A DNA stretch of 64,000 bases from assembly GCA_947447955.1 (NCBI GenBank), contig CANFLS010000004.1, positions 21,327 to 85,326 on the forward strand, in the 5' to 3' direction. The notes under the pieces are model-generated. The model was not told the DNA's origin. It saw only the letters and a program-made list of their open reading frames with translations, and did not search any database. Within the stretch, counting starts at the first letter, position 1. Every line of letters starts with the position of its first letter. Both the position numbers and the translations under genes were made by a program. Below are positions 3,705-49,286 of the stretch, one piece after another. Source of the stretch: Flavobacteriales bacterium. Lineage in GTDB: Bacteria; Bacteroidota; Bacteroidia; NS11-12g; UBA955.

Positions 3705-6647
3705 TTAATTTTTAGATTTCTTTTTAGCTGTTAAATCAATAACAATTGGAGTTGCAATACACAAAGAAGAATATGTTCCGATTACAACACCAATAAGCAT
3801 TGCAAACGAGAAGTTCTTCAAGGCGTCACCACCAAATAAGAATAGAATGATACAAACTACAAATACAGTAGACGATGTAATGATTGTACGACTTAAAGTA
3901 TCGTTCAATGCAGAGTTAATCATCAATGTATCGTCTTTGTCGGTACGGCGTGAAGTTAAGAACTCACGAATACGGTCAAATACAATAACTGTATCATTAA
4001 TTGAGTAACCCAATATAGTTAATAACGCCGCAATCAAATGTTGGTCAAATTCAGTAGCAAATGGAACAAACCCGTCAACGATTGCATAAACAGACAATAC
4101 CAATGCCAAGTCATGCACCAATGAAATAGCAGCACCAATACCATAAGCAATACTTCTGAATCGGAATACCAAGAACAAGAAGATACCTACAACTGTAAGC
4201 ATTACCAGGAATGCAGATTTGTTTCTAATTTCTGTTGCAATTGTTGGAGTTACGTTAGAAACTTGAATCACTGGGCCTTCACCATTTTTATCTTTTTTAA
4301 GTTCGAATGAAGACAACGCTTTTAACAAGTCTTCTTGAACTTTCATTTTGGTTTCTTTAGAAGAAGATTCTTTCAACAAATAAGTTGTAAGAATTTTATA
4401 TTGTCCATCTGAACCAAATGTTTTCACCTCATTGCTAGAACCAGCAAGAGATTTGTCAAGTGTTTCTTTAATGTCTTCAGTTTTATAACTTTTAGACGCA
4501 TCAAATTGAATGATGAAAGAGTTACCTCCTTTGAAATCGATACCAGTTGTGATACCACCTTTAGTGATAAAGGAAACAATACCCAATACAATAACTAAAG
4601 AAGAGAATAAATAGTATTTTTTACGGTTTTTAACCCAATCGATATTCTTATTTTTTAAGAAATTTTCGTTCCAAGTAAATCCAAATTTGGTATCCAAACC
4701 TTTATCCGCTCTTCTGTCTAATAACAAACGAGTGATGAATAAAGCAGTAAACAATGAACTGAAAATACCAATTACCAAGATAATTGCGAAACCATAAACT
4801 GGACCAGCACCTGTAAATGTTAAAATGAAACCTGCCAATAAGTGGGTAATGTTTGAGTCAATAATTGCACTCATTGCATGTTTGAAACCTTCATTGATTG
4901 CAGTTTTCATTCCTTTACCTAGAGCCAATTCATCTTTGATACGTTCGTAGATAAGTACGTTTGCATCAACCGCCATACCAATGGTTAAGATGATACCTGC
5001 CATACCAGGAAGTGTTAATGCAGCACCTAAGCTTGACAATACACCCATAATCAAGAATACGTTTCCTAAAACAGCTACAATTGAAATCCAACCAGCGCGG
5101 TTATAGTAAACCACCATGAATAATACAACTGATATAAAGCCAAGAATCAAGGCCAAGAATCCTTTAGAAATTGCAGCGTCACCCAACGATGCACCCACAA
5201 CTTCACTTGCTACAATTCTAGCAGGAGCAGGTAATTTACCCGCTTTCAATACGTTTGCCAAATCTTGTGCTTCACGGATGTCGAAGTTTCCAGAAATCTG
5301 ACTGCTTCCACCGCTAATTTTGCCATTTACACGTGGTGCAGAGTAAACCCTGTCATCAAGTACAATTGCGATATACTTACCAATGTTGGCACCAGTAACT
5401 TGAGCCCAACGAGAAGCAGCAGATGGAGTCATTTCCATTGAAACTTCTAATTGACCAGTTTGGTTGGTGTTTTCACGGGCATCAGAAATAATATTTTCTT
5501 CTTCAGAAGATAAAGCAGCATTGCCATCTCTATCGCGTTTCAAGAAATAAACGAAATAATCTTCAGAATTTGTTAATTCTTTTCCGCTTTGGTCATAATC
5601 TTGAGGTTTTGCACTGAATGCAATTTTAACAGATGGTTCCAAAATTGCAGCATATTTCTCTTCAGAAAGAATTTTTAACAATTTTTCACGGTTGCTACCT
5701 TTAATGGTACAAACTGCAGATTCTTCGCCTTTACCAAATGGTTTCAAAATTGAAGACAAAATGCTTTTTTCAGATTTACCGGCATCAGCAGTTTTAGCCA
5801 CTGAGCTATCTTTAACCATTGAAGTATCATTAGCCGCAGTATCTTTAATTGGAGCAGAAGCCATAGACGCCGCTTTCATTAATTGACTGTAGATTTTAAC
5901 ACCGTCAATGCCACCGTTCACTTCATAGAATTCTAATTTTGCACTTTTTTCAACCAAATCTTCCATACGGCGGGGATTATCTACACCTGGCAATTCAACG
6001 CTAATTCTACCACCTTCAACAATTTGAACCACTGGTTGAGTAACATTGGCTTGGTTAATACGTTTTTCAACTACCGATTTTACGTTAGCAACAGCTGTAT
6101 TGATTGAAGAACGCAAGTAATTTACAACCTCAGTTTGAGAACTGTTTGGTTGAATCACAGAATTATTTCCTTTCACAAACAACACTGCCATATTTCTTCC
6201 AGGAGCAACTTCATTGAATGCAGAAATAAATGCATCTACATAATCTGTTCCTTTATCTCTTACAGCAACATCAGCCATTTTCACTGCTTTTAACAAATCA
6301 GCATCTTTGGGATCATTTGCCAATACTTTTACAATCGCATCTTTTTCAACTTCTAAGGTAACATTCATACCACCTCTTAAGTCAAGACCTAAGTTGATTT
6401 CTTTCTGTTTACACTCAAAATAAGTGTAATCAGCAATACCTAATAAATTGTAACACGGCTTGTTTCCAAGACTGTCAATGTATCTTAAATACACATCTTT
6501 TTCTCTCTCTCCCGATTTTGCTTTTTTAGCAGCAAATGCATGGGCATCGTTTTCAAAACTTCTCGCTTTAATTGTAAAAGACAATTGGTATAAACACGCT
6601 ATTGCCAATACAATTGAAAAAACGACTACTGATCTATTACTTTTCAT
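3705..6647 (-). CDS. secDF: protein translocase subunit SecDF (fused)
   Basis: LGLDLRGG, LTLPGMAGIILTIGMAVDANVLIYERIKDE, GIDFKGG, GYSINDTVIVFDRIRE. Confidence 0.97.
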   Translation of the reverse strand: MKSNRSVVVFSIVLAIACLYQLSFTIKARSFENDAHAFAAKKAKSGEREKDVYLRYIDSLGNKPCYNLLGIADYTYFECKQKEINLGLDLRGGMNVTLEVEKDAIVKVLANDPKDADLLKAVKMADVAVRDKGTDYVDAFISAFNEVAPGRNMAVLFVKGNNSVIQPNSSQTEVVNYLRSSINTAVANVKSVVEKRINQANVTQPVVQIVEGGRISVELPGVDNPRRMEDLVEKSAKLEFYEVNGGIDGVKIYSQLMKAASMASAPIKDTAANDTSMVKDSSVAKTADAGKSEKSILSSILKPFGKGEESAVCTIKGSNREKLLKILSEEKYAAILEPSVKIAFSAKPQDYDQSGKELTNSEDYFVYFLKRDRDGNAALSSEEENIISDARENTNQTGQLEVSMEMTPSAASRWAQVTGANIGKYIAIVLDDRVYSAPRVNGKISGGSSQISGNFDIREAQDLANVLKAGKLPAPARIVASEVVGASLGDAAISKGFLALILGFISVVLFMVVYYNRAGWISIVAVLGNVFLIMGVLSSLGAALTLPGMAGIILTIGMAVDANVLIYERIKDELALGKGMKTAINEGFKHAMSAIIDSNITHLLAGFILTFTGAGPVYGFAIILVIGIFSSLFTALFITRLLLDRRADKGLDTKFGFTWNENFLKNKNIDWVKNRKKYYLFSSLVIVLGIVSFITKGGITTGIDFKGGNSFIIQFDASKSYKTEDIKETLDKSLAGSSNEVKTFGSDGQYKILTTYLLKESSSKETKMKVQEDLLKALSSFELKKDKNGEGPVIQVSNVTPTIATEIRNKSAFLVMLTVVGIFLFLVFRFRSIAYGIGAAISLVHDLALVLSVYAIVDGFVPFATEFDQHLIAALLTILGYSINDTVIVFDRIREFLTSRRTDKDDTLMINSALNDTLSRTIITSSTVFVVCIILFLFGGDALKNFSFAMLIGVVIGTYSSLCIATPIVIDLTAKKKSKN

Positions 6648-21761: not shown

Positions 21762-24700
21762 TTAACGAATAACTTGAATGTATCCTCTATACTCTTCTTT
21801 GGTTTGACGGTTTTTCATGTAATAAAAGTACACACCATTTGGCAATACATTTCCATCAGAATCAACCCCATTCCAATTGTTTAAATAATTATTGCTGGTA
21901 TATATCCTCTTCCCTTGTCGGTCACTAATCACTATATCAAACAAGAAAACATCTGGAATTTCAATTAAATCCCAGTATTCATTTGATTTATCACCGTTCG
22001 GTGTAATAATGTTTGGTATTTTCACCAATGGAGGATCAACTACCCTGATGTGAACTGAATCAACATCTACACAACCGTTTGAATCTGTTGCAACAACAAA
22101 CAATGTAATTGAATCTGTTAATTGAATTGTTGAAGTACCCACTTTGGTAGAATCAGCAACATACATACCTGGATACCAATGGAAATTCTTCAATGCATTT
22201 GATACATAAACTGAAGCTTTTCTTCCTCTAAAAATTGTAGTATCGGAATGTGCATTGATATTTGCCGGAGGATAAGCATAAACTTGAACAGAATCCATTG
22301 CAAAACAAACACCCTTATTATACGCTTTAAAAATATAATTTCCTGTTTTAGAAATTGGCTTCACAAAAACGGAATCATTGTCACTTTGCCAAATTATCGA
22401 ATCTCCTCCTGTGATTGTAAATGTGGCAGAATCTCCTTTGCACAATGGCATACTTCCCGACATATTCCATGAAATAACTGGTCTATCAACAAATGTGTTT
22501 ACATTTACAAAGGCGGTATCTGAACAACCATTTTTGGTTTTTACAATATAACTCGCATTGAAAGGACCCGCATTTTTAAAGAACACATTTCTCTTTAAAA
22601 TATTAGAATCAGTTACACCATTGCCAAAATCCCAATAACGCTGTTTGATTGTATCTAATGAATAGGTCAAGGTATCATAAAAATAAGCTGAATCTGGCAT
22701 ACAAACTCCTTTATATGCGAAGTGCGCAATTGGAGATGGTACTACATTCACTGGATGCATAACACTATCGGCACAACCATGAATATTGGTAACTACCAAT
22801 CGAGGCTGAAAAATACCAGTTGTGTCATAGCTATGAAATAAGGTTACAGCGGGTGATTCTTTAAATGTATCGCCCCAAACCCATTTGGATGTGAGTATGG
22901 TATCGTTGGGATCAACCCCGTAATTTTGAATAAATGTAAATTTATTCCATTTCTGACATTGCTTTAAATCGTTCGGTGTAACCGACGGATCTAATGAGAA
23001 AGTAGGCTGAGGTTTATAAAAAACTTGAAATAAACCTAAAGCAGAATCTCTACAGCCAGCTTTTGATGTTCCAACCAAACGTGCTTTATGAACTCCTGGC
23101 GCAGTAAATTTAAATTTAGTAGCAGTATCTGTTGCCATAATGGTATCATCAAACGTCCAATTCCAATTCATACTATCTTGGCGTGGATACTTGAAGTTTA
23201 ACAACCTTCTAAATCTCGTAGTATCACCAAAACAGGCTTCTTTAACGCTATACAAAGGCACAGGCTTAGGGTGAACTCGCAACCAATAAACTTGGGTATC
23301 TTTACAGATATTGGCAGATTGCACTTCCAATAATATTTTATATAGACCAATCTTTGCATAAGTATGTGCACTATTTGGCATTGCAGAATCATATGGTGAT
23401 CCATCACCCCAATTCCAAATATCGTAAAGAATATTTTCTGGAGAAGCAACACCAGAAGTATTTAATGTATTTGTAACTTCACCAATACATGTATTTGTTG
23501 CTGTAAATTGAGCTGCGGGTTTTGCAAATAAGTTTATAGCTTTTATCATTGAATCCTTACAATCCGCATCAGTAGTTACTGACAATTTGACTAATCTAGA
23601 ACCCGCAGTTGCATATTTATGATATACTATTTGATTCAACTTTGGCGGTCCTGTTTGACCATTTAATTTGGTACCATCGCCCAAATCCCAAGACCATTTC
23701 AACATTTTATCAGGAGATGGATCCGCAGTACCATTGGTAATTGCTATTGATTTATTAGCGTCCCAACATTGGTCAATTGCATCAATAAAAATTGCAGGCT
23801 TCGCATGCAAAATATAATCCTGACTGTCAATTGCTTTACATTGATATTGATTTGTACGTGCAATAAAAATCTTATATGTACCTGCAGCTAAAAATTTATA
23901 ATTGATTTTTGTAGAATCTTTATATCCAATTGTACCGGCAGTATTCCCTTTCACGTAGGAGGGAACAGTTGGAGTAATTGTCCAAACCTTTTTTTGCATT
24001 ACTTCTCCAGTAGGCGGAGAATATGTATCCGTAATACGGGTAGTTTGGCCTTGACAAACGCTAGTAATAATCTTTGGCAATAAATCAACACTTTGTGTGA
24101 ATATATTTGAAGTCAATGGCACACGTGGCGTATTATAAATGATTACGTTTTTATATCCAAAATCGAAACTCGTAGCATTTTCAACTCTCAAAGAAACAAT
24201 ATATGGATAACTTAAAGTTGCAGGCGTTCTTGCATAAACATGCCAAGCCGTTGAACCAGTTTGTGTTGGAGAACCATCGCCAAAGTCCCATATGTAACCT
24301 GTAATTGATGAACCAATTGATTTAGAATTACTAGAAAATTTAATAGTATCACCTTCACATTGATTCACAACAATAAACGATGAAAATACGTCAGTACTTC
24401 CCAATGTATTCAACCCACCCAAATAACCTGAGGTTTGAGACCCTATTTTATTTCCTAAAATATAATACCCAGTCAAGTTAGTAATCGAACTCGAAGACAT
24501 TGTACCCAATCTATTTGCAGTGCCTACAGTATTGTTCAATACCCAAGCTGCAGAACCTGTAGAAGTTAATAATTGTAAATTGGCAAAATCATAAACACGA
24601 TCGTCATTGGTTAATGTATCGTAGCTGAATTTAATTATGAAACTATTTGCTACTGTATTCGCTGCTGAAGTGTTCATGTAATAATGATGCACTTTTGAAA

Positions 24701-40355: not shown

Positions 40356-41435
40356 ATGAAAAATAACCCATTTACACTCAAAATATTTTTAATAATTTCA
40401 ATTTCAACCTTGTTTTCAAACCTTGTAAAAGCACAATATTACGAACAGGATGTTTATTCAGCAACCAAATACGTAACTATTTACACTTCTGATTTTGTTA
40501 CAGGAAAGAAAATCCTTAATAATTACCTATCCAACAAAAAATGTGAAGTACTGAATCAAGAAATTAATACCCGAACTTTTGAAGTTTCATTTCAATTGAA
40601 TGAAAATTTGGTTGGATCGTTAGATTCTGCTTTAGGACTTATTGGATACATTACCAATTCTACCCAAAACAACAACAATAACAAACTGAAAGTAAAAAAA
40701 TTAGAAGCAGAGCTGGAAGACAATACATATAAATTGGAAAAAATGCGCAACAAATACAAATTAGATTCTAATGCCAATTCAAGAAAAAACATAGAATTTT
40801 CCATAGAGAATTTAGAAGAAAATAACAGGCGTATTTCTCGCAATCTCAAACAAATGAAAGAAAATTATCAAACGGTATTTGTAAAGGTTACCATCAACGA
40901 TGAACTTTCAACCCCCACAAATTCCAAAATTGCTTTTGCTAAAATGCCAGGGTTGACATACAATCGTTTATATATAGAAAATCAGAAGAATGGAATTTCT
41001 ACAAATCTTTACGCGGGTTACAGTATGAAATATATTTTTACCAAAGGCAAAAGCTATTTTCAAATTGGCGTGTTGAAAAGTGCAACTGACTTGTCAAAAG
41101 TTACTAAATACGACAGCGTAAAAGCCAAAAACACTATCAATGAATTTTTTACATTTGAATTCGGTCAAGATTTTTATACCAGATATTTTGGACGTGGAAA
41201 TAGAAAGTTCTTCAATTTGTACTCAGGTTACTCAATTGGAGGTGCAATTATTAATCAGGCTAACGACTTAAACACACGCTTTGCTGCTTTCACCAATTTG
41301 AGTATGGGTGTTGAGTTATTGAAAACAAAACACATATTATTAGATGTAAAAGGTTCCTATTTTTTACCGCTGGCAGATATCAACAGAAACACAAGGGGCA
41401 TCATGCTAAGTGGCTCATTTAACTTTGTGTTCTAA
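40356..41435 (+). CDS. hypothetical secreted protein: DUF4349-like coiled coil plus C-terminal beta-barrel-like region
   Basis: Signal peptide, central heptad coiled coil, amphipathic beta-strands ending SFNFVF. Confidence 0.5.
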   Translation: MKNNPFTLKIFLIISISTLFSNLVKAQYYEQDVYSATKYVTIYTSDFVTGKKILNNYLSNKKCEVLNQEINTRTFEVSFQLNENLVGSLDSALGLIGYITNSTQNNNNNKLKVKKLEAELEDNTYKLEKMRNKYKLDSNANSRKNIEFSIENLEENNRRISRNLKQMKENYQTVFVKVTINDELSTPTNSKIAFAKMPGLTYNRLYIENQKNGISTNLYAGYSMKYIFTKGKSYFQIGVLKSATDLSKVTKYDSVKAKNTINEFFTFEFGQDFYTRYFGRGNRKFFNLYSGYSIGGAIINQANDLNTRFAAFTNLSMGVELLKTKHILLDVKGSYFLPLADINRNTRGIMLSGSFNFVF

Positions 41436-43411
41436 TGGAATTTGACAAGAAAAATCTGTCCGAAGCCGAGTTAATGCTCATTTACAGGGCATTGATAAAA
41501 CCACGTATCATTGAAGAACGCATGTTGGTTTTACTCAGACAAGGTAAAATTGGAAAGTGGTTTAGCGGCATAGGACAAGAAGCAATTTCTGTAGGTTTAA
41601 CATTGGCACTTTATGAAGACGAGTATATTCTACCCCTTCATAGAAATTTAGGCGTTTTCACCACCCGTAATATGTCTGACAAACAATTGTTTGCGCAGTG
41701 GCAAGGCAAAAAAAGTGGTTTCACCAAAGGCCGCGACAGAAGTTTCCACTTTGGAAGCAATGAGCACCATATTGTTGGAATGATTTCTCACCTAGGTGCC
41801 ATGCTCGGTGTTGCAAATGGTATTGCACTCGCAGACATTTTAGAAAACAAACAACGTGTTACCGTTTGCTTTAGCGGTGATGGCGGTACCAGCGAAGGTG
41901 ATTTTCACGAAGCCATGAATGTGGCGGCAGTTTGGTCATTGCCTGTGATATTCTTGATTGAAAATAATGGTTATGGCTTGTCTACTCCTAGTCAAGAACA
42001 GTTTCGTTGCAAACAGTTCATCGACAAAGGCATAGGATACGGAATGGAAACCCTTCAAATTGATGGTAATAACATTCTTGAGGTTTATCATGAACTTTCA
42101 ACACTAACCAAATCAATGAGGGGAAATCCTAGGCCCGTTTTGGTTGAAGCCCTCACCTTCCGCATGCGTGGACATGAAGAAGCAAGTGGCACGAAATACG
42201 TCCCTCAAGAACTTTTTGACAAATGGATTAAAAAAGACCCTATTTCAAATTTTGAAACCTTTTTGATTTCTGAGGGATATTTAACCAACGAATTAAAAAA
42301 GAATATCGAAACTGAAATTTTGGCTCAATTAAATGAAAGTATTGAAGCTGTTTTTGCTGAGCCAGAAATTGAGGCAGATTTACAAGAGGAAATGAATGAT
42401 GTTTATGCGCCTTTTACTTCTCCAATTGAACCAGGAAATCATGATAACTGTTCCGAAATGCGACTCATTGATTCTGTTCGAAATGCCTTGTGGTTGGCAA
42501 TGGAAAAACATGATTCACTGGTGATTATGGGACAAGATGTTGCAGATTATGGTGGAGTTTTCAAAGCTACCGAAGGATTTGTTGAGAAATTTGGCAAGGC
42601 CAGGGTGCGCAATACCCCAATTACTGAAAGCAGTATTTTGGGCGCAGGATATGGCTTGGCAATTCGCAAAATGAAGGCAATTGTTGAAATGCAATTTTCT
42701 GATTTTGTTACTTGTGGATTTAATCAAATTGTCAATAATTTGGCAAAAAGTCATTACCGTTGGGCGCAACCCGCCGACGTGGTTGTGCGCATGCCAACCG
42801 GTGCTGGCGTGCAAGCTGGTCCTTTCCATAGTCAAAGTACAGAATCTTGGTTTTACAATGTACCAGGATTGAAAATATATTACCCAAGTACCGCAAAAGA
42901 TGCCAAAGGGTTATTGCTCAGGGCCATTGAAGATCCCAATCCAGTGCTCTTTTTCGAACACAAATATTTGTATAGGACCCAATCTGACTTGGTGCCAGAA
43001 GATTATTATATAATTGATGAAGGACAAGCAACCGTTCACGATTTTGGAAGTGACGCCTGCATTATCACTTACGGTTGGGGTGTTTCAAAAGCCCTCGAAG
43101 TTGTAAAAGAAAATAACTTCAACGTAAAAATCATTGACTTGAGAACCTTAGTTCCGTTAGATAAAGACACCATTGCCAACGTAGTAAAAGAAACCGGCAA
43201 GGTGTTGGTTTTAACTGAAGATTGTTTAACCGGAAGTATTGCTTCAGACATTGCCAGTTGGATATCTGAAGAATTTTTCGTATATTTAGATAGCCCTGTC
43301 ATGCGATTAGGTAGTATCGAAACCCCTATTCCACTCGCAAAAACCCTTGAAGATCAATTTTTACCTTGGGGTAGGTTGAAAGGGAAACTACAGGAGTTAA
43401 TTGAATTTTAG
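41435..43411 (+). CDS. 2-oxoacid (probably branched-chain) dehydrogenase E1, fused alpha/beta
   Basis: TPP motif GDGGTSEG...ENN, RMRGH, GQDV..YGGVF, NTPITE, HSQS.E, FFEHK, IDLRTL.P.D. Confidence 0.93.
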   Translation: MEFDKKNLSEAELMLIYRALIKPRIIEERMLVLLRQGKIGKWFSGIGQEAISVGLTLALYEDEYILPLHRNLGVFTTRNMSDKQLFAQWQGKKSGFTKGRDRSFHFGSNEHHIVGMISHLGAMLGVANGIALADILENKQRVTVCFSGDGGTSEGDFHEAMNVAAVWSLPVIFLIENNGYGLSTPSQEQFRCKQFIDKGIGYGMETLQIDGNNILEVYHELSTLTKSMRGNPRPVLVEALTFRMRGHEEASGTKYVPQELFDKWIKKDPISNFETFLISEGYLTNELKKNIETEILAQLNESIEAVFAEPEIEADLQEEMNDVYAPFTSPIEPGNHDNCSEMRLIDSVRNALWLAMEKHDSLVIMGQDVADYGGVFKATEGFVEKFGKARVRNTPITESSILGAGYGLAIRKMKAIVEMQFSDFVTCGFNQIVNNLAKSHYRWAQPADVVVRMPTGAGVQAGPFHSQSTESWFYNVPGLKIYYPSTAKDAKGLLLRAIEDPNPVLFFEHKYLYRTQSDLVPEDYYIIDEGQATVHDFGSDACIITYGWGVSKALEVVKENNFNVKIIDLRTLVPLDKDTIANVVKETGKVLVLTEDCLTGSIASDIASWISEEFFVYLDSPVMRLGSIETPIPLAKTLEDQFLPWGRLKGKLQELIEF

Positions 43412-43430
43412 TATTCAATTAACTCCTGTA
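43389..43430. repeat. perfect 18-bp inverted repeat looping out the E1 stop codon
   Basis: TACAGGAGTTAATTGAAT-tttagt-ATTCAATTAACTCCTGTA, with TAG 43409-43411 in the loop. Confidence 0.95.
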
Positions 43431-43431
43431 A

Positions 43432-43471
43432 GATTAGACCGGTTAGACGGGTTAGACAGGTTAGACAGATT
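43432..43471 (+). repeat. 9-bp tandem array GRTTAGACN (4 units plus partial)
   Basis: GATTAGACC GGTTAGACG GGTTAGACA GGTTAGACA GATT. Confidence 0.92.
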
Positions 43472-43734
43472 CTTTTGGAGGATTACAGATTAGTATGTTT
43501 ATGCAGAACATTTAGGTCTATTCGAGTTTTTCGACAAATTAGACGTATCCCATTCAAATAATAAAAGAAACAAACTGATTAAACTGATTTATTTCCTTTA
43601 TACAATTCAAATAAGTTACCGAATCCTATGGATAAGGTTAGAAAAAAATCAAATATGAATTAATAAAAGTTACAGATTTTGATAGATTAGGCGATTTGTT
43701 TTCGAATTATGTGTTTTACCGTTAAAATACAAAC

Positions 43735-43852
43735 TGTCTAATCCGTCTAATCTTCCCGAAAGCTTTCGGGATAACCTGTCTAATCTAATTACACAATCCG
43801 TCTAATCCGTCTAATCAGTCTAATCTGTCTAATCCGTCTAATCCGTCTAATC
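43735..43852 (-). repeat. 9-bp tandem array GATTAGACN on the minus strand (2+1+6 units)
   Basis: NGTCTAATC units at 43735, 43744 and 43777, plus six contiguous units 43799-43852, ending 3 nt from the ychF stop. Confidence 0.95.
43754..43771. repeat. perfect 18-bp palindrome (REP-like) inside the array
   Basis: TCCCGAAAG|CTTTCGGGA. Confidence 0.85.
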
Positions 43853-43855
43853 TAA

Positions 43856-44956
43856 TTAGACATTAAACCTGAAGTGCATGCAATCGCCGTCTTTCACGAT
43901 GTATTCTTTGCCTTCAACGCGGAGTTTTCCAACGTCGCGGCAAGCGGCTTCTGAACCGTAGTGAATCCAATCTTCGTAGGCAATTACTTCGGCGCGGATA
44001 AATCCTTTTTCGAAATCGGTATGAATCACAGCGGCGGCTTGAGGGGCTTTGGTACCGTCGGTAATTGTCCAGGCCCTTACCTCTTTTACTCCAACTGTGA
44101 AATAAGTAATGTAATTCAATAATTGATAAGCCGCTTGAATCAATTTTTCTACCCCGCTTTGATTTAATCCCATTTCTTCAAGGAAAATCTTGCGGTCTTC
44201 ATAGCTTTCAAGTTCAGCAATTTCGGCTTCAATGGCAGCAGAAATAATTAATATTTCGGCATTTTCATCTTTTACTGCATTTCGCACCAATTCTACATAT
44301 GCATTTCCATTGATAGAACTATCTGGATCAACGTTACAAACGTACAATACCGGTTTTTCGGTAAGTAAATTTAAATCCTTTACAAACTCTTTCTTTTCAA
44401 CTTCAATTTCAATTGTACGGGCATTTTTACCTTGTAATAAGTGCGCTTTGTATGCTTCGCAAACTTCTAAGGTTTTTGCTGCTTCTTTGTCTCCACCAGT
44501 TCTTGCTTGTTTTGCAATTTTAGAAATTCGCGCTTCAAGGGTTTCTAAATCTTTCAACTGCAATTCGGTGTCAATAATTTCTTTGTCGCGAATTGGGTTT
44601 ACAGATCCATCAACGTGAATGATATTATCATCGTCGAAGCATCTTAATACATGCAAAATGGCATGGGTATTTCTGATGTTTCCTAAAAATTGGTTACCTA
44701 GTCCATCGCCTTTTGAAGCGCCTTTAACCAACCCTGCGATATCAACAATTTCAATTGTAGTAGGTACAATATTTTGAGGATTTACAAGCTCGGCAAGCTT
44801 ATTCATACGTTGATCGGGAACGGTAATGGTTCCAACATTCGGCTCAATAGTGCAGAATGGAAAATTAGCTGATTGCGCTTTAGCGCTAGAAACTGCGTTA
44901 AAAAGGGTTGATTTACCTACGTTTGGCAAACCTACGATTCCACATTGTAAAGACAT
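43856..44956 (-). CDS. ychF: redox-regulated ATPase YchF
   Basis: GIVGLPNVGKSTLFN, FPFCTIEPN, DIAGLV, GFIRAEV, terminal FRFNV. Confidence 0.98.
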   Translation of the reverse strand: MSLQCGIVGLPNVGKSTLFNAVSSAKAQSANFPFCTIEPNVGTITVPDQRMNKLAELVNPQNIVPTTIEIVDIAGLVKGASKGDGLGNQFLGNIRNTHAILHVLRCFDDDNIIHVDGSVNPIRDKEIIDTELQLKDLETLEARISKIAKQARTGGDKEAAKTLEVCEAYKAHLLQGKNARTIEIEVEKKEFVKDLNLLTEKPVLYVCNVDPDSSINGNAYVELVRNAVKDENAEILIISAAIEAEIAELESYEDRKIFLEEMGLNQSGVEKLIQAAYQLLNYITYFTVGVKEVRAWTITDGTKAPQAAAVIHTDFEKGFIRAEVIAYEDWIHYGSEAACRDVGKLRVEGKEYIVKDGDCMHFRFNV

Positions 44957-44968
44957 TTGGCTACAAAG

Positions 44969-46348
44969 TTACTCTAATAAATCACCAATATCTTGTAAAA
45001 TTTTCTTGGTGAGGTTTTCTGCGGTGGTTAAACTCGCACTTTCGGCATAAATACGGATGATAGGTTCGGTGTTACTCTTACGCAAATGCACCCAATCTCC
45101 ATCGAAATCAATTTTCACGCCATCTATTGTATTTACTGGTTGTTTTTTATACTTATCGCAAATTTTCTCTAAGATTAAATCAACGTTTGTACCTTCTTGC
45201 AATTCGGCCTTATTTTTAGACATCATATAAGTTGGATACAAAGCACGCAAACCTGAAGTTGTCATATTTGATTCAGCCAAATGCGTTAGGAATAATGCAA
45301 TTCCTACCAAAGCATCACGGCCATAATGTAATTCTGGCAATATAATACCACCGTTACCTTCACCGCCAATAATTGCGTTGTTTGCTTTCATGCATTCAAC
45401 AACATTTACTTCGCCTACCGCACTTGCAAAGTACTTTTGACCTGCTTTTTCAGTAAGTTCTTTTAAAGAACGGGTACTTGACAAATTACTAACGGTTGCA
45501 CCAGGAGTATGTTTTAATACATAATCGGCACAAGCCACCAAGGTGTATTCTTCACCAAACATTTCGCCATCGTCGGAAATGAATGCCAAACGATCTACAT
45601 CAGGATCAACCACAATACCCAATTGGCATTTATCGGCCTTAACCACTGATGAAATTTCACCTAAGTGCTCAGCCAAAGGTTCTGGATTGTGAGCGAAGTG
45701 ACCAGTTGGCTCGCCGTTAATTAAAACGACATCAGTAACCCCTAAGGCATTGAGCAATTTTGGGATGGCAATTCCACCAACACTATTCACTACATCAACC
45801 GCAACTTTGTATTTTTTAGCTTTGATAAGTTCTGGTTTAACCAAATCAAGCTCAAGAATTTTTTGAATATGGTAATCTAAATAATCAGTTTTTGTTAATT
45901 TACCTAAATGATCAACGGTTGCAAAAGTAAACTCACCTTTTTCAGCAATTTCCAAAATGGCTTCGCCATCGGCGCCACTGATAAACTCACCTTTTTCATT
46001 GAGTAATTTCAATGCATTCCATTGTTTAGGGTTATGACTTGCTGTAATGATAATTCCACCGGCTGCATTTTCAGCAACAACTGCCATTTCCACGGTTGGA
46101 GTAGTAGCCAACTCCAAATCCACTACATTGATACCCAATCCTATGAGGGTATTCACAATCAAATCTTGAACCATAGGTCCGCTGATTCTAGCGTCTCTAC
46201 CTACAACGATTTTCTTATTGTCTGATTTCTGAGAAATCCAAGTACCATAAGAAGATGCGAACTTCACAATATCTATTGGGGTAAGGTTATCTGATGGAGC
46301 TCCGCCGATTGTACCTCTGATACCTGAAATTGATTTAATTAATGTCAT
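44969..46348 (-). CDS. glmM: phosphoglucosamine mutase
   Basis: SISGIRG, TASHNP, DPDVDR, GEGNGG, RKSNTEP. Confidence 0.9.
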   Translation of the reverse strand: MTLIKSISGIRGTIGGAPSDNLTPIDIVKFASSYGTWISQKSDNKKIVVGRDARISGPMVQDLIVNTLIGLGINVVDLELATTPTVEMAVVAENAAGGIIITASHNPKQWNALKLLNEKGEFISGADGEAILEIAEKGEFTFATVDHLGKLTKTDYLDYHIQKILELDLVKPELIKAKKYKVAVDVVNSVGGIAIPKLLNALGVTDVVLINGEPTGHFAHNPEPLAEHLGEISSVVKADKCQLGIVVDPDVDRLAFISDDGEMFGEEYTLVACADYVLKHTPGATVSNLSSTRSLKELTEKAGQKYFASAVGEVNVVECMKANNAIIGGEGNGGIILPELHYGRDALVGIALFLTHLAESNMTTSGLRALYPTYMMSKNKAELQEGTNVDLILEKICDKYKKQPVNTIDGVKIDFDGDWVHLRKSNTEPIIRIYAESASLTTAENLTKKILQDIGDLLE

Positions 46349-46361
46349 AAATTTTGGGGTG

Positions 46362-46369
46362 CAAAAATA
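46362..46369 (-). promoter_or_regulatory. -7 promoter box for glmM
   Basis: TATTTTTG upstream of the glmM ATG. Confidence 0.6.
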
Positions 46370-46499
46370 GACAAAAAAGACTGTAATTTGTTCGGAATGA
46401 TTTATTTTTTATAAACGTACCAAAATATTAAATAAGTGAATGATTTTAAAGAAAAACCAACTTTATACCCATAAATCAAAGGGATTAAGTGAAATTTAT

Positions 46500-46507
46500 T
46501 ACCTTTG
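46500..46507 (+). promoter_or_regulatory. -7 promoter box for ftcD
   Basis: TACCTTTG, 4 nt before the ATG. Confidence 0.65.
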
Positions 46508-46511
46508 TTAA

Positions 46512-48206
46512 ATGCAAAAAATTGTTGAATGTGTTCCTAATTTTAGTGAAGGAAAAAATTTACAAATAATCAAACAAATTACAGACGCAATTGAAAGTGT
46601 GGATGGGGTTCAATTACTCGATGTTGATCCAGGAAAAGCAACCAACAGAACTGTGGTTACCATAGTGGGGGAAGTTGATTTGGTAGTTGAAGCTGCATTT
46701 AGAGGTATCCAAATGGCCTCAACATTAATTGACATGCGCAATCATGCTGGTGAACATCCAAGAATGGGTGCTACAGATGTTTGTCCCTTAATTCCAATTT
46801 CTGGAATCAGCATGGAAGAAACGGCACAATATGCACAACAATTGGCAAAACGTGTTGCAAATGAATTGTCAATTCCTACTTACCTATATGAAGATGCTCA
46901 GCCCAATAAAAGTCGCTCCAATTTGAGCGTAATTAGGGCTGGAGAATATGAAGGCTTCTTTGAAAAAATTAAGGATCCCATTTGGGCTCCTGATTTTGGA
47001 AAAGCCGAAATGAATGCAACCGCCGGAGCTACCGTGATTGGTGCCCGCGATTTTCTAATTGCATTCAATATCAACTTAAATACCAAAAGTACCCGCGTTG
47101 CAAACCGAATTGCATTCGACGTAAGAGAAGCCGGCCGTGTAAAACGAGAAGGCAACCCTATCTCTGGCAAAATTGTAAAAGATGAAAACGGCGAAGATGT
47201 TCGTATTCCCGGAAAATTAAAATCTGTAAAAGCCATAGGTTGGTTTATTGAAGAATATAACATTGCCCAAATTAGCATGAATTTGACCAATTACCATGTT
47301 ACTCCCCTTCATATTGCCTTTGAAGAAACGCGTAAAAGCGCAGATGAAAGAGGTGTTAGAGTTACAGGTAGCGAATTGGTCGGGCTTATTCCGTTGAAGT
47401 CAATGCTCGATGCCGGAAAATACTTTCTTGAAAAACAAGGCTTAAGTTCAGGTGTGAGCGAAGCTGAATTGGTTGATATTGCTATTAAATCTTTGGGATT
47501 AAGCGAAATTTCAAATTTTGATCCCAAAAAGAAAATCATTGAATACATCCTTCAAGATCCTAAAAAATCGAAATTGGTATCAATGACCGTAAAAGGATTT
47601 GCCGATGAAACTGCTTCTGATAGTCCCGCTCCAGGTGGAGGTAGTATTGCTGCTTTGGCTGGTGCTTTGGGCGCATCATTGGGAACAATGGTTGCTAATT
47701 TAAGTGCTTCTAAAAGAGGTTGGGAAGACCGGGTTGGTGAATTTTCACCGTGGGCTGAAAAAGGACAAAAACTCAAAGATGAGTTGTTGTTCTTAGTTGA
47801 CGAAGATACCCGTGCTTTTGATGGAATTATGAATGCTTTTGGACTTCCAAAAGACAATGCAGAACAAGTTGCTGCGCGCAAACAAGCAATTGAATCAGCA
47901 AGTAAATACGCCACTGAAATTCCATTCAAAACCATGCAAGCTGCATTCAATTGTATACCATTATTGCAAGAAATGGCAAAGAATGGCAATCAAAATTCTT
48001 TAAGCGATGTAGGAGTTGGTGCCATTTGTATCAAAACCGCGGTAAGAGGTGCTTGGTTAAACGTTTTAATTAACGCTAAAGGACTAACAGACCAAGTTTG
48101 GGCTAAAAGTATTGTAGAACAAGCAAGAACATTGCTCGCTGAAAATCATACGTTGTGCGATGAGATTGTGAAGGGAATCGAAGAAAGATTAGACGGGTTA
48201 GACTGA
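46512..48206 (+). CDS. ftcD: glutamate formimidoyltransferase / formimidoyl-THF cyclodeaminase (bifunctional)
   Basis: ECVPNFSEG, GEHPRMGATDVCP, GSELVGL, cyclodeaminase motifs SPAPGGGS and SLSDVGVGA. Confidence 0.95.
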   Translation: MQKIVECVPNFSEGKNLQIIKQITDAIESVDGVQLLDVDPGKATNRTVVTIVGEVDLVVEAAFRGIQMASTLIDMRNHAGEHPRMGATDVCPLIPISGISMEETAQYAQQLAKRVANELSIPTYLYEDAQPNKSRSNLSVIRAGEYEGFFEKIKDPIWAPDFGKAEMNATAGATVIGARDFLIAFNINLNTKSTRVANRIAFDVREAGRVKREGNPISGKIVKDENGEDVRIPGKLKSVKAIGWFIEEYNIAQISMNLTNYHVTPLHIAFEETRKSADERGVRVTGSELVGLIPLKSMLDAGKYFLEKQGLSSGVSEAELVDIAIKSLGLSEISNFDPKKKIIEYILQDPKKSKLVSMTVKGFADETASDSPAPGGGSIAALAGALGASLGTMVANLSASKRGWEDRVGEFSPWAEKGQKLKDELLFLVDEDTRAFDGIMNAFGLPKDNAEQVAARKQAIESASKYATEIPFKTMQAAFNCIPLLQEMAKNGNQNSLSDVGVGAICIKTAVRGAWLNVLINAKGLTDQVWAKSIVEQARTLLAENHTLCDEIVKGIEERLDGLD

Positions 48207-48261
48207 TTAGACAGATTAGACGGGTTAGACGGATTAGACGGATTAGACGGATTAGACGGAT
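48187..48261 (+). repeat. 9-bp tandem array GRTTAGACN (8 units plus partial) overlapping the ftcD 3' end
   Basis: Units run 48187-48258. The first two encode the C-terminal LDGLD, and TGA 48204-48206 spans a unit junction. Confidence 0.95.
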
Positions 48262-48286
48262 AAATAAAAGGGTTTAGACTTTAAAA

Positions 48287-48334
48287 TTAAACTGCGAAGC
48301 TTAAACTGCAGAGCATAAACAGCGAAGCGTAAAC
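48287..48334 (+). repeat. 14-bp tandem array NTAAACWGCRRAGC (3 units plus partial)
   Basis: TTAAACTGCGAAGC TTAAACTGCAGAGC ATAAACAGCGAAGC GTAAAC. Confidence 0.85.
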
Positions 48335-48338
48335 AACA

Positions 48339-49286
48339 ATGAAAAAACTCCTGCTCATATTGACATTGCTTGCTGCTTCAACTTCTGAAGGTCAGTTTGC
48401 TCCAGCAGCTGGGAAAGCAGGCAGTACTGCTATTAAGGCAGACAGTACTTGCTTTGTCAATTGGGCTTCAGAATGCACAGTAAAACGCGGATTGGCGCAA
48501 ATTAATTTGGCAGATTCTGGTTATGCATCCGTTGGAACAGCAAATGCAGCCATTGGTCCGGCGCTTAAAAATGGCGTGGTTAGTCTTGGTGATGGTGGTT
48601 CAGCAGTGCTGTATTTCAATCCACCTATAGAAGACCAAGATGGTTTCGACTTTGCCATTTTCGAAAATGCATTTCTCGATACATTTTTAGAATTCGCCCA
48701 TGTTGAAGTCAGCAACGATAAAATAAATTGGATAAGATTTCCGTCCGTTTCACTTACACAAACTACAAAACAAGTTGAACCGTTTGGATATACCTATCCA
48801 GAACATATTTCAAACTTAGCCGGCAAATACAAAATGCCTTATGGTGTGCCATTTGACCTATCCGAACTCAAAGACAGTCAAAACTATCAAACTACATTTC
48901 AATATGTAAGAATTACCGATGTGGTGGGTTCAATAAATCCAGCATTGGGAAGTAAAGATTCAAAAGGGAATATGATCAACGACCCTTGGCCTACCCCATT
49001 TGCGAGTTCTGGATTTGATTTGGATGCGGTGGGAGTAATTCACCAATCTGCAACTACAAACAATGTCAAATCGTTACATAAAAATCTATTTTGTAAATAT
49101 AATAGAAACACTCAAACCCTAACATTTGCAAAACCACTATATGAAAATATTGCTATTTATAGCAATACTGGAAACAGGGTGTTTCAACAAAAAATAAACG
49201 GCAGTGAATTAATTGTCCCTCAAAATTTATCTGAAGGAGTTTATCACTTACAATGTTCACTCGGAACATTCCAATTTATCAAATAG
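48339..49286 (+). CDS. secreted cell-surface protein with T9SS type A-like CTD, possibly BtuH-like cobamide-binding
   Basis: Signal peptide, VSLGDGG..F..PI.D..GFDFAIFENAF, VEVS.D..W, GFDLDAVGV, CTD ending LSEGVYHL. Confidence 0.6.
   Translation: MKKLLLILTLLAASTSEGQFAPAAGKAGSTAIKADSTCFVNWASECTVKRGLAQINLADSGYASVGTANAAIGPALKNGVVSLGDGGSAVLYFNPPIEDQDGFDFAIFENAFLDTFLEFAHVEVSNDKINWIRFPSVSLTQTTKQVEPFGYTYPEHISNLAGKYKMPYGVPFDLSELKDSQNYQTTFQYVRITDVVGSINPALGSKDSKGNMINDPWPTPFASSGFDLDAVGVIHQSATTNNVKSLHKNLFCKYNRNTQTLTFAKPLYENIAIYSNTGNRVFQQKINGSELIVPQNLSEGVYHLQCSLGTFQFIK

What the first reader, a model, noticed from the sequence alone, without database searches (positions are those of the whole stretch)
43432..48261. 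One 9-bp repeat family (GRTTAGACN)n sits on the sense strand at the 3' ends of three unrelated housekeeping genes
Seen: arrays of the same 9-mer follow the E1 gene (+, 43432-43471, starting 21 nt after its stop) and ychF (-, 43852-43735, starting after a 3-nt gap). A third overlaps the end of ftcD (+, 48187-48261). In all three the transcript would read GRUUAGACN right after or across the stop codon. Variation is confined to positions 2 and 9 while TTAGAC is invariant, which looks more like a conserved recognition motif than random slippage. No transposase, recombinase or cargo gene is present. Inference: this may be a gene-end-targeted repeat system, either 3'-UTR sites for a multimeric RNA-binding protein or landing pads/scars of small cassettes. 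From memory, Bacteroidota GxxExxY and four-helix-bundle genes are often flanked by short inverted tandem arrays, but I have not verified this here.
Basis: partly seen in the sequence, partly recalled or inferred. Interest (0 to 1): 0.72.

Follow-up and report, generated by a model that had tools for sequence, protein, structure and literature searches.

The report
Inverted short-repeat arrays bounding intergenic cassettes
The 9-base repeats after three gene ends are the ends of small foldback-type elements scattered through this lake bacterium's genome, and the same design of inverted short-repeat arrays brackets a small four-helix-bundle gene in many bacterial phyla.

Summary
GRTTAGACN arrays lie at 43432-43471 (+), 43735-43852 (-) and 48187-48261 (+), and contigs from independent metagenome studies reproduce them.

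They are not three separate gene-end marks. The E1 and ychF arrays are the two inverted arms of one gene-less element of about 420 bp in a convergent spacer. The ftcD array is a solo arm.

Genome-wide there are 68 such arrays, most with 4 units, in 45 spacers. Of the arrays near a gene, 48 of 59 point outward towards it. They favour 3' ends (39 vs 20) and convergent spacers.

The family is confined to this species and one close relative. A sister species has a 10-mer (GTTTATRANN) in the same architecture at the same orthologous sites, so positions are kept while units turn over.

The same design brackets four-helix-bundle genes of the 23S-rRNA intervening-sequence protein family: 2 of 2 here, 6 of 6 in relatives, and 62 of 73 loci from many phyla on at least one side.

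Best reading: intervening-sequence-like foldback cassettes and their gene-less derivatives. The stem-forming arrays matter by structure, not by sequence. How they move and what they do as RNA are inferred, not shown.

The parts
41435..43411 (+). 2-oxoacid dehydrogenase E1 gene, the left neighbour of the element
   Evidence: ORF; Pfam E1_dh, Transket_pyr, Transketolase_C
43388..43431 (.). 19-bp perfect hairpin spanning the E1 stop codon. The second arm is an inverted copy of the last 19 nt of the E1 coding sequence, and it directly abuts the array.
   Evidence: 19 pairs, loop 6. In G020 the 6-nt loop is flipped (TTTAGT vs ACTAAA), and the stop is TAA instead of TAG. Absent in G018.
43432..43471 (+). 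Left arm: 4 GRTTAGACN units plus the GATT inner boundary
   Evidence: The inner boundary GATT is shared by most arrays genome-wide.
43472..43734 (.). AT-rich non-coding core of the element (263 bp, one stray TTAGAC at 43539)
   Evidence: No ORF of 40 aa or more. No four-helix-bundle remnant by tblastn. No Rfam match. Nearly identical in G020; not alignable to G018.
43735..43852 (-). Right arm. Read on the - strand: 6 tandem units, a spacer, 1 unit, an 18-nt palindrome (43754-43771), then 2 units.
   Evidence: The palindrome module occurs 34 times in the genome, 29 of them next to a unit.
43856..44956 (-). ychF GTPase gene, the right neighbour. Its own last codons, GTC TAA, read TTAGAC on the other strand.
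   Evidence: The same gene end is present in G018.
46512..48206 (+). ftcD gene. Its last 7 codons lie in the array (...R L D G L D stop).
   Evidence: In G018 the last codons and the stop lie in a GTTTATGA unit instead.
48187..48261 (+). Solo arm: 8 GRTTAGACN units (4 in G020)
48262..48286 (+). Eroded remnant of the older 10-mer array plus the conserved flank gggtTTAGACttta
   Evidence: Compared with G020 (taattataaggatttataagggtTTAGACttta) and G018 (ggtttatgaaagtttatgaaggtttataagggtTTAGACttta)
48287..48338 (+). Second repeat family: 14-mer TTAAACTGCGAAGC, 3.4 copies, running up to the ATG of ORF 48339..49286
   Evidence: Relatives carry 19-mer variants at the same place. A related family brackets the second four-helix-bundle gene.

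Best explanation
The arrays are the terminal arms of a lineage-specific family of small foldback-type intergenic elements. Each arm is a run of usually four GRTTAGACN units. The two arms are inverted, so the element can fold into a stem of about 36 bp around an AT-rich core.

The E1 and ychF arrays are the two arms of one gene-less element, and the ftcD array is a solo arm. The pattern 'sense strand just after the stop codon' has three causes:
- The arms always point outward.
- The elements survive mainly where they do no harm, at gene 3' ends and in convergent spacers of a compact genome.
- The original spacers were only about 20-30 bp long.

The elements belong to the same structural class as cassettes that enclose a four-helix-bundle gene of the 23S-rRNA intervening-sequence protein family between inverted short-repeat arrays. 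That class is found in many phyla. The window's copies are gene-less derivatives.

Sites are kept between species, but the unit, and where present the enclosed gene, is replaced.

Inferred, not shown: what is selected is a register-tolerant stem of about 28-36 bp, as in rRNA intervening sequences cut by RNase III, and not the unit sequence. Spread happens by cassette movement or exchange into existing elements.
For: Shown:
- There are 68 arrays of 3 or more units, and 44 of them have exactly 4.
- Recurrent +...- pairs lie 120-600 bp apart with a shared inner boundary.
- 48 of 59 arrays within 100 bp of a gene point outward: 34:5 at 3' ends and 14:6 at 5' ends. Counts are 39 at 3' ends against 20 at 5' ends (p 0.018).
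- Arrays sit in 20 of 363 convergent spacers, 18 of 1553 tandem spacers and 7 of 348 divergent spacers (p 6e-7).
- The element folds at -123 kcal/mol, z -8.7, with the arms paired.
- The four-unit pattern was found in only 3 of 41 related genomes: 94, 37 and 1 matches.
- Over about 61 kb of collinear sequence, the only short-array sites in G018 are the same two loci, and they carry 10-mers.
- In 7 of 8 further orthologous spacers, G018 has GTTTAT arrays where G000 has TTAGAC arrays or units. G020 shows intermediate states.
- Four-helix-bundle genes are bracketed by inverted arrays in 2 of 2 cases here and in 6 of 6 in relatives, one of them partial with one side only.
- In 68 loci from other phyla, 94 of 119 arrays lie within 200 bp of the gene. 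Of 35 two-sided loci, 21 are clearly inverted.
- Both cyanobacterial plasmid copies examined (2 of 2) are array-flanked.
- At one orthologous site G000 has a gene with TTAGAC arms and G018 has a gene with GTTTAT arms. The proteins are 47% identical while the flanks are 91-93% identical. G005 and G024 have a 147-bp spacer there with neither.

From the literature: the Coxiella 23S intervening sequence is a 428-nt selfish element with a 28-bp terminal stem cut by RNase III and the family's ORF in the loop (PMC4990558, abstract and passages).
Against: - No transposase, target-site duplication or conserved target was found at the outer junctions.
- No Y1/RAYT gene was found. The nearest of 6 tyrosine recombinases is 3.6 kb from an array.
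- I found no clean presence/absence case for a gene-less TTAGAC element, so mobility of those copies is inferred.
- Gene-less elements carry no detectable remnant of the four-helix-bundle gene. Their derivation rests on shared architecture and shared unit only.
- Solo arms such as the ftcD array cannot form the stem.
- No RNA evidence exists beyond one 39-nt metatranscriptome contig with 3 mismatches that could come from any copy, or from DNA in the library.
- Gene calls for the statistics are my own longest-ORF calls, not a curated annotation.
Confidence: 0.62

Rival explanations
1. 3'-UTR cis-elements: the arrays are multimeric binding sites in mRNA for an RNA-binding protein that controls stability or termination of the upstream gene.
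For: 34 of 39 arrays near gene 3' ends are on the sense strand, with a median gap of 6 bp after the stop, and 7 overlap the stop. Position 1 and the core are invariant. Heptamer arrays elsewhere have been proposed as post-transcriptional regulator sites (PMC4679880, abstract).
Against: 14 of 20 arrays near 5' ends are antisense to the adjacent gene. Arrays come as inverted pairs. At the same orthologous sites the unit is a 10-mer in G018 and 7- or 8-mers in G005 and G024. The same arrays bracket a gene on both sides. There is no RNA evidence.
Confidence: 0.12
2. In-place microsatellite-like growth: arrays arise and turn over at fixed spacers by replication slippage and gene conversion, with no mobile element (as is often assumed for cyanobacterial STRR heptamers).
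For: Copy number differs between close relatives (8 vs 4 at ftcD). Sites are conserved between species while units differ. TTAGAC arrays sit next to eroding 10-mer remnants. A single GGTTAGAC-like word exists in the conserved flank.
Against: The same unit with the same inner boundary occurs at 45 spacers. 44 of 68 arrays have exactly 4 units. Paired inverted arms share cores. A whole gene-plus-arms cassette differs at one site, and that site is empty in two species.
Confidence: 0.15
3. Structural terminators or insulators: the long inverted-array hairpins are selected as bidirectional transcription stops between convergent genes, whatever their origin.
For: Enrichment in convergent spacers (20 of 363 vs 18 of 1553 tandem). 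Strong predicted stem (z -8.7).
Against: The loop is about 260-380 nt and no T-run follows the stem. The terminator scan found no more sites than in shuffles (4 vs 4.7). Solo arms and 5'-end copies exist. This reading is compatible with the best explanation as a secondary effect.
Confidence: 0.1
4. Assembly or binning artefact.
For: Several arrays lie at contig ends (C20, C22, C28, C52, C55).
Against: Identical contigs from runs of other studies cover the arms and core. The same element is present in a second species' genome.
Confidence: 0.01

Closest known systems
23S rRNA intervening sequences (IVS) carrying the S23p/four-helix-bundle ORF (e.g. Coxiella, Leptospira)
   Same: A selfish element of about 400-450 nt with terminal inverted repeats that form a stem of about 28-36 bp. 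The ORF of the same protein family lies in the loop (for the C2 cassette). Horizontal spread and conserved insertion sites (PMC4990558, abstract and passages).
   Different: These elements lie in spacers between protein genes, not in 23S rRNA. The stems are built of tandem 7-10-nt units. Most copies here have no ORF. RNase III cutting is untested here.
Cyanobacterial STRR (short tandemly repeated repetitive) heptamers
   Same: Short tandem units, intergenic, many loci, can form hairpins, function unknown (PMC2670836, passage). Two cyanobacterial plasmid four-helix-bundle genes are flanked by such heptamers.
   Different: Period 9 rather than 7. Different phylum. No link to four-helix-bundle genes is stated in the passage I read. 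The original description (Mazel 1990) is recalled, not read.
TAACTGA intergenic heptamer direct repeats (MacGregor 2015, PMC4679880)
   Same: Sets of 2-6 copies. Lineage-patchy distribution that includes Bacteroidetes. Some sets overlap ORF ends. Indels come in unit steps between strains (abstract, section 10, passages).
   Different: Those lie mostly just upstream of start codons in forward orientation. An inverted-pair architecture is not described. The terms '23S' and 'helix bundle' do not occur in that paper.
REP/BIME mosaic elements with RAYT transposases (recalled)
   Same: Species-specific extragenic repeats at gene 3' ends in mosaic arrangements with other modules. Orthologous sites carry species-specific versions.
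   Different: The unit is not a palindrome. No Y1/RAYT gene in this genome (94% complete).
MITEs and foldback elements whose inverted ends are tandem short repeats (recalled, e.g. Drosophila FB)
   Same: Small, non-coding, multicopy, with inverted ends built of tandem repeats.
   Different: No target-site duplication or transposase identified.

Membership tests
23S rRNA intervening sequence (IVS) | Inserted in a 23S rRNA helix | tested here: not met
   The elements lie between protein-coding genes.
23S rRNA intervening sequence (IVS) | Terminal inverted repeats forming a long stem | tested here: met
   The arms pair in the predicted fold, z -8.7. Inverted pairs recur.
23S rRNA intervening sequence (IVS) | Encloses an S23p/four-helix-bundle ORF | tested here: not met
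   No ORF or remnant in the window element. Met for the sister cassette at C2:54112-54825.
23S rRNA intervening sequence (IVS) | Excised by RNase III | not testable with these tools
   Needs RNA end mapping or an in-vitro assay.
STRR | Tandem heptanucleotide unit | tested here: not met
   Period 9. Related species have 7-mers.
STRR | Dispersed intergenic arrays at many loci | tested here: met
   68 arrays in 45 spacers.
REP/BIME-RAYT | Imperfect palindromic unit | tested here: not met
   GRTTAGACN is not self-complementary. Only the accessory 18-nt module is a palindrome.
REP/BIME-RAYT | Cognate Y1 (RAYT) transposase gene | tested here: not met
   PF01797: 0 matches in the genome. The control rang in 6 of 14 genomes.
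MITE | Terminal inverted repeats, small size, many copies | tested here: met
MITE | Target-site duplication and empty sites | tested here: inconclusive
   No common duplication at 68 outer junctions. An empty site was seen only for the gene-bearing cassette.
Integron cassette array (attC) | Adjacent IntI integrase and co-oriented cassettes | tested here: not met
   None of the 6 tyrosine recombinases lies at the C1 cluster or in the window. Genes in the cluster have mixed orientation.
CRISPR | Repeats of 20+ bp separated by unique spacers | tested here: not met
   Head-to-tail 9-mers without spacers.

The most novel reading that the evidence does not exclude
The four-helix-bundle protein (S23p/Avd-like; both solved relatives were deposited with five chains per entry) together with its pair of inverted short-repeat arrays may be a self-contained mobile unit found across bacterial phyla. 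Each protein variant would recognise its own array of about 4-5 units. The gene-less arrays scattered at gene ends would be its non-autonomous footprints. These would include cyanobacterial STRR heptamers, the TAACTGA-type repeats and this 9-mer family. That would give a 35-year-old class of orphan repeats, and rRNA intervening sequences, a common origin and a candidate protein.
Probability: 0.25. Interest if true: 0.88.

Novelty: new variant of a known kind. Interest (0 to 1): 0.68.

Why it matters
Short tandem intergenic repeats (STRR, TAACTGA-type heptamers) have been catalogued for decades without an origin or a function. The protein encoded in rRNA intervening sequences also has no known role.

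This window leads to a testable link between the two. The same inverted-array design that fills gene-end spacers here tightly brackets the intervening-sequence protein gene in many phyla. Orthologous sites keep the design while swapping the unit.

If confirmed, this defines a widespread class of cassettes. It would explain why such arrays sit at gene ends and break assemblies. It would also give annotation pipelines a rule for recognising them.

Full-text searches found no paper stating the link.

Tried and rejected
- Rfam scan of 43300-48500: 0 matches at E up to 1.
- RAYT/Y1 transposase: none in the genome.
- Integron-like reading of the C1 cluster: no integrase nearby.
- Viral vector: the four-unit pattern hit 56 viral-contig loci. 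Their spacers were mostly other, homogeneous 9-mers (TTAGACTTC, TTAGACAAA and the like), 2 of the 56 had family-like spacers, and 0 of 56 resembled this genome by megablast.
- Gene remnants in gene-less elements: tblastn with 6 four-helix-bundle proteins found only the two intact genes.
- Terminator and promoter consensus scans: no more sites than in shuffles.
- Conserved insertion target or duplication at the outer junctions: none seen by eye in 68 junctions.
- Covariation of protein and unit: pairs sharing a heptamer have a median of 58.5% protein identity (23 pairs), against about 40% at distance 2 or more. Most such pairs are close kin, and one ORF (L107) was mis-extracted, so this is suggestive only.
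- RNA evidence: of 4 runs laid, the one RNA run gave only a 39-nt contig on the right arm with 3 mismatches. This is no proof of transcription.
- I did not determine the taxon name. By best hits and habitat it is a freshwater-lake bacterium whose four-helix-bundle proteins are nearest to Flavobacteriaceae MAGs.
Full report
**1. The observation**

- A + strand run of four GRTTAGACN units lies at 43432-43471. It starts 20 nt after the stop of the E1 dehydrogenase gene.
- A - strand set lies at 43735-43852 and ends 3 nt from the ychF stop.
- A + strand run of eight units lies at 48187-48261. The ftcD reading frame runs into it and ends on a TGA supplied by the array.

Pfam confirms the three genes. 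TTAGAC is over-represented in the window: 38 occurrences against 21.6 +/- 4.5 in shuffles.

The arrays are not an artefact. Contigs from public lake-metagenome runs of two other studies match with no differences over 43288-43847 and 43080-43847, and other contigs continue into ychF. Contigs break inside the arrays, so the copy number of the eight-unit array is unconfirmed.

**2. Genome-wide picture**

The window lies in a 2.81-Mb, 70-contig, 35.5% G+C genome. That genome has 68 arrays with at least three exact cores at 9-bp spacing. The size distribution is 10 with 3 units, 44 with 4, 6 with 5, 2 with 6, 2 with 7, 3 with 8 and 1 with 12. Together they hold 298 of the genome's 1407 TTAGAC words.

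Position 1 is always G. Position 2 is A or G. Position 9 is mostly A or G.

Many arrays come as + ... - pairs 120-600 bp apart around AT-rich non-coding DNA. They share an inner boundary (TTAGAC-A-GATT...) and recurrent companion modules:
- an 18-nt palindrome TCCCGAWAGCTWTCGGGA, present 34 times, 29 of them beside a unit, with paired A/T swaps that keep the palindrome;
- a 10-mer GTTTATRANN;
- units of TAAAC plus a small hairpin.

The E1 and ychF arrays are therefore the two arms of one element of about 420 bp that fills a convergent spacer. As RNA it is predicted to fold with the arms paired (-123 kcal/mol, z -8.7).

**3. Strand and stop-codon bias**

I used my own longest-ORF gene calls: 2334 genes covering 89% of the genome.
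- Arrays occupy 45 spacers: 20 of 363 convergent, 18 of 1553 tandem and 7 of 348 divergent (chi-square p 6e-7).
- Of arrays within 100 bp of a gene boundary, 39 face a 3' end and 20 face a 5' end (p 0.018).
- 48 of 59 have their 5' side towards the gene: 34:5 at 3' ends and 14:6 at 5' ends.
- The median gap from stop codon to array is 6 bp, and 7 arrays overlap the stop.

The polarity, however, belongs to the element, because the arms point outward. It does not belong to the transcript. Unoccupied spacers in this genome have a median of only 22-27 bp, which accounts for the closeness to stops.

**4. Distribution and turnover**

The four-unit pattern occurs in 3 of 41 related genomes: 94 overlapping matches here, 37 in G020 and 1 in G018. 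It was not found in the other 22 same-genus or 16 same-order genomes searched.

G018 is a close relative. Its YchF is 97% and its FtcD 95% identical in protein. It is collinear with the window over about 61 kb at 85-88% DNA identity. Its only short-array sites in that stretch are the same two loci, but the unit is a 10-mer, GTTTATRANN.

In a second syntenic region, 7 of 8 spacers compared hold GTTTAT arrays in G018 where G000 holds TTAGAC arrays or units. Two of these are clear inverted pairs of about 4 units around a core conserved within each species. G005 and G024 carry 7- and 8-mers at the E1-ychF and ftcD ends.

G020 shows intermediates, with GTTTAT units followed by TTAGAC arrays. G000 keeps single eroded 10-mer units on the inner side of its arrays.

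The 10-mer pattern is the more widespread: 7 of 27 genomes of the genus. The 9-mer is therefore probably the younger family, laid over older elements at the same sites.

**5. Link to four-helix-bundle genes**

- The genome has two TIGR02436 genes. One (C2:54359-54676) lies between TTAGAC arrays of 4 and 5 units (+) and 4 units (-). The other lies between inverted arrays of the TAAAC family.
- In five relatives there are six hits, and all are array-flanked. A different unit accompanies each copy: GGTAGAT, TTGGTCT, TTTCGGG, the GTTTAT 10-mer, the TAAAC type, and a 17-mer on one side of a partial copy.
- A profile scan of species-representative genomes returned 80 loci from Bacteroidota, Planctomycetota, Acidobacteriota, Desulfobacterota, Verrucomicrobiota and others. 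Of 73 with enough flank, 36 had arrays on both sides, 26 on one side and 11 on neither.
- In the 68 loci with full flanks, 94 of 119 arrays lie within 200 bp of the gene. Period 7 accounts for 78 of the 119, with a median of 4.3 copies.
- Of 35 two-sided loci, 21 are clearly inverted, 2 are direct and 12 are unclear.
- Left heptamers contain AGT in 58% of cases, and right heptamers contain ACT in 54%.
- Two of two cyanobacterial plasmid copies are flanked by heptamers. One of these sits between cas6 and cas4.

At the C2 site the orthologous position differs between species.
- G018 holds a cassette with GTTTAT arms. Its protein is only 47% identical to the G000 protein, although the flanks are 91-93% identical.
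- G005 and G024 have a 147-bp spacer there with neither arrays nor gene.

The whole unit, gene plus arms, is thus gained and exchanged.

GxxExxY genes show only weak association with arrays.

**6. Mechanism**

Shown: the architecture, polarity, site bias, lineage restriction, site conservation with unit turnover, and the association with the gene family.

Inferred: the arms matter as a stem. Arm lengths of about 28-36 bp (4 x 7 to 4 x 9 nt) resemble the 28-bp terminal stem of the Coxiella 23S intervening sequence. That element is 428 nt, selfish, carries the same family's ORF in its loop and is cut by RNase III (PMC4990558, abstract and passages).

A stem built of tandem units can pair in several registers and so tolerates slippage. 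That would explain why the unit sequence is free to change while the number of units is not.

Spread into existing elements would keep sites constant. In a compact genome these are the only places where insertion is harmless.

Whether the protein binds the arrays is open. The two solved relatives, 2gsc and 2rld, each have five chains in the entry.

**7. What argues against this reading**

- No transposase, duplication or target motif was found.
- Gene-less copies carry no gene remnant.
- Solo arms cannot fold into the stem.
- There is no usable RNA evidence.
- The covariation of protein and unit is confounded by kinship.

**8. Comparison with what is known**

The closest described things are:
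- rRNA intervening sequences;
- cyanobacterial STRR heptamers (PMC2670836, passage);
- the TAACTGA heptamer repeats of Beggiatoaceae, Cyanobacteria and some Bacteroidetes (PMC4679880, abstract, section 10 and passages). That paper does not mention the gene family or inverted pairs.

REP/RAYT membership fails on two tested features. My searches found no paper joining short tandem arrays to this gene family. One paper notes such genes inserted in cas loci (PMC3936711, passage). Supplements were not consulted.

**9. Verdict**

This is a real, non-random repeat family.

The RNA-binding-site idea is unlikely. The cassette-end idea is supported.

The window's case is a new variant (9-mer, gene-less) of a known kind of element. 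The wider association it exposes deserves a systematic survey.

Noticed in passing
window 43388-43431: A 19-bp perfect inverted repeat spans the E1 stop codon. The arm after the stop is an inverted copy of the gene's last 19 nt. In the close relative G020 the 6-nt loop is flipped (TTTAGT vs ACTAAA), which changes the last codon and the stop (F-TAG vs Y-TAA). It is absent in G018. This looks like a hairpin template-switch or inversion footprint at the element junction.
   Followed up: partly
window 48287-48338; genome C1:86350-87000 (L028): A second repeat family (14-mer TTAAACTGCGAAGC; variants of TAAAC plus a GNRA-like mini-hairpin, period 14-24) runs right up to the start codon of ORF 48339. 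In inverted form it brackets the genome's second four-helix-bundle gene.
   Followed up: partly
window 43754-43771 and 33 other genome sites: An 18-nt palindrome TCCCGAAAGCTTTCGGGA is embedded between units. The common variant TCCCGATAGCTATCGGGA has paired changes that keep the palindrome. This suggests a hairpin or a dimer-binding site.
   Followed up: partly
genome C1:66175-71380 (L011 7175-12381): A 5.2-kb insertion relative to G018 is bounded by inverted TTAGAC arrays. By eye it carries an AAA-ATPase (DUF4143-like), a RES/Xre pair, a nucleotidyltransferase/HEPN-like pair and a hypothetical gene, with a gene-less array element in nearly every spacer. These gene names are my reading of the translations, not a family scan.
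   Followed up: partly
L206 (Pseudanabaena plasmid) 976-1675: A four-helix-bundle gene sits between cas6 and cas4. It is wrapped in long heptamer arrays (AAAAGCT x15.6 upstream, AAAAGCC x14 downstream). This fits an older report of such genes inside cas loci (PMC3936711).
   Followed up: partly
L029-L108 flanks: Heptamer units flanking four-helix-bundle genes in many phyla share AGT on the left and ACT on the right (58% and 54%, against roughly 11% expected for a given trinucleotide in a random circular heptamer).
   Followed up: partly
genome contig ends C20:43814, C22:42996, C28:137, C52:1537, C55:1288: Several contigs end at or near arrays. The family therefore fragments the assembly and is probably under-counted.
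   Followed up: no
L175-L204: GxxExxY genes in the same order often have short 8-10-mer runs (e.g. CACGGAGAA) in the 200 bp upstream, but rarely downstream.
   Followed up: partly
window 5793-5835 and 23846-23900: Two other tandem repeats (18-mer x2.4, 24-mer x2.3) were reported by TRF and not examined.
   Followed up: no
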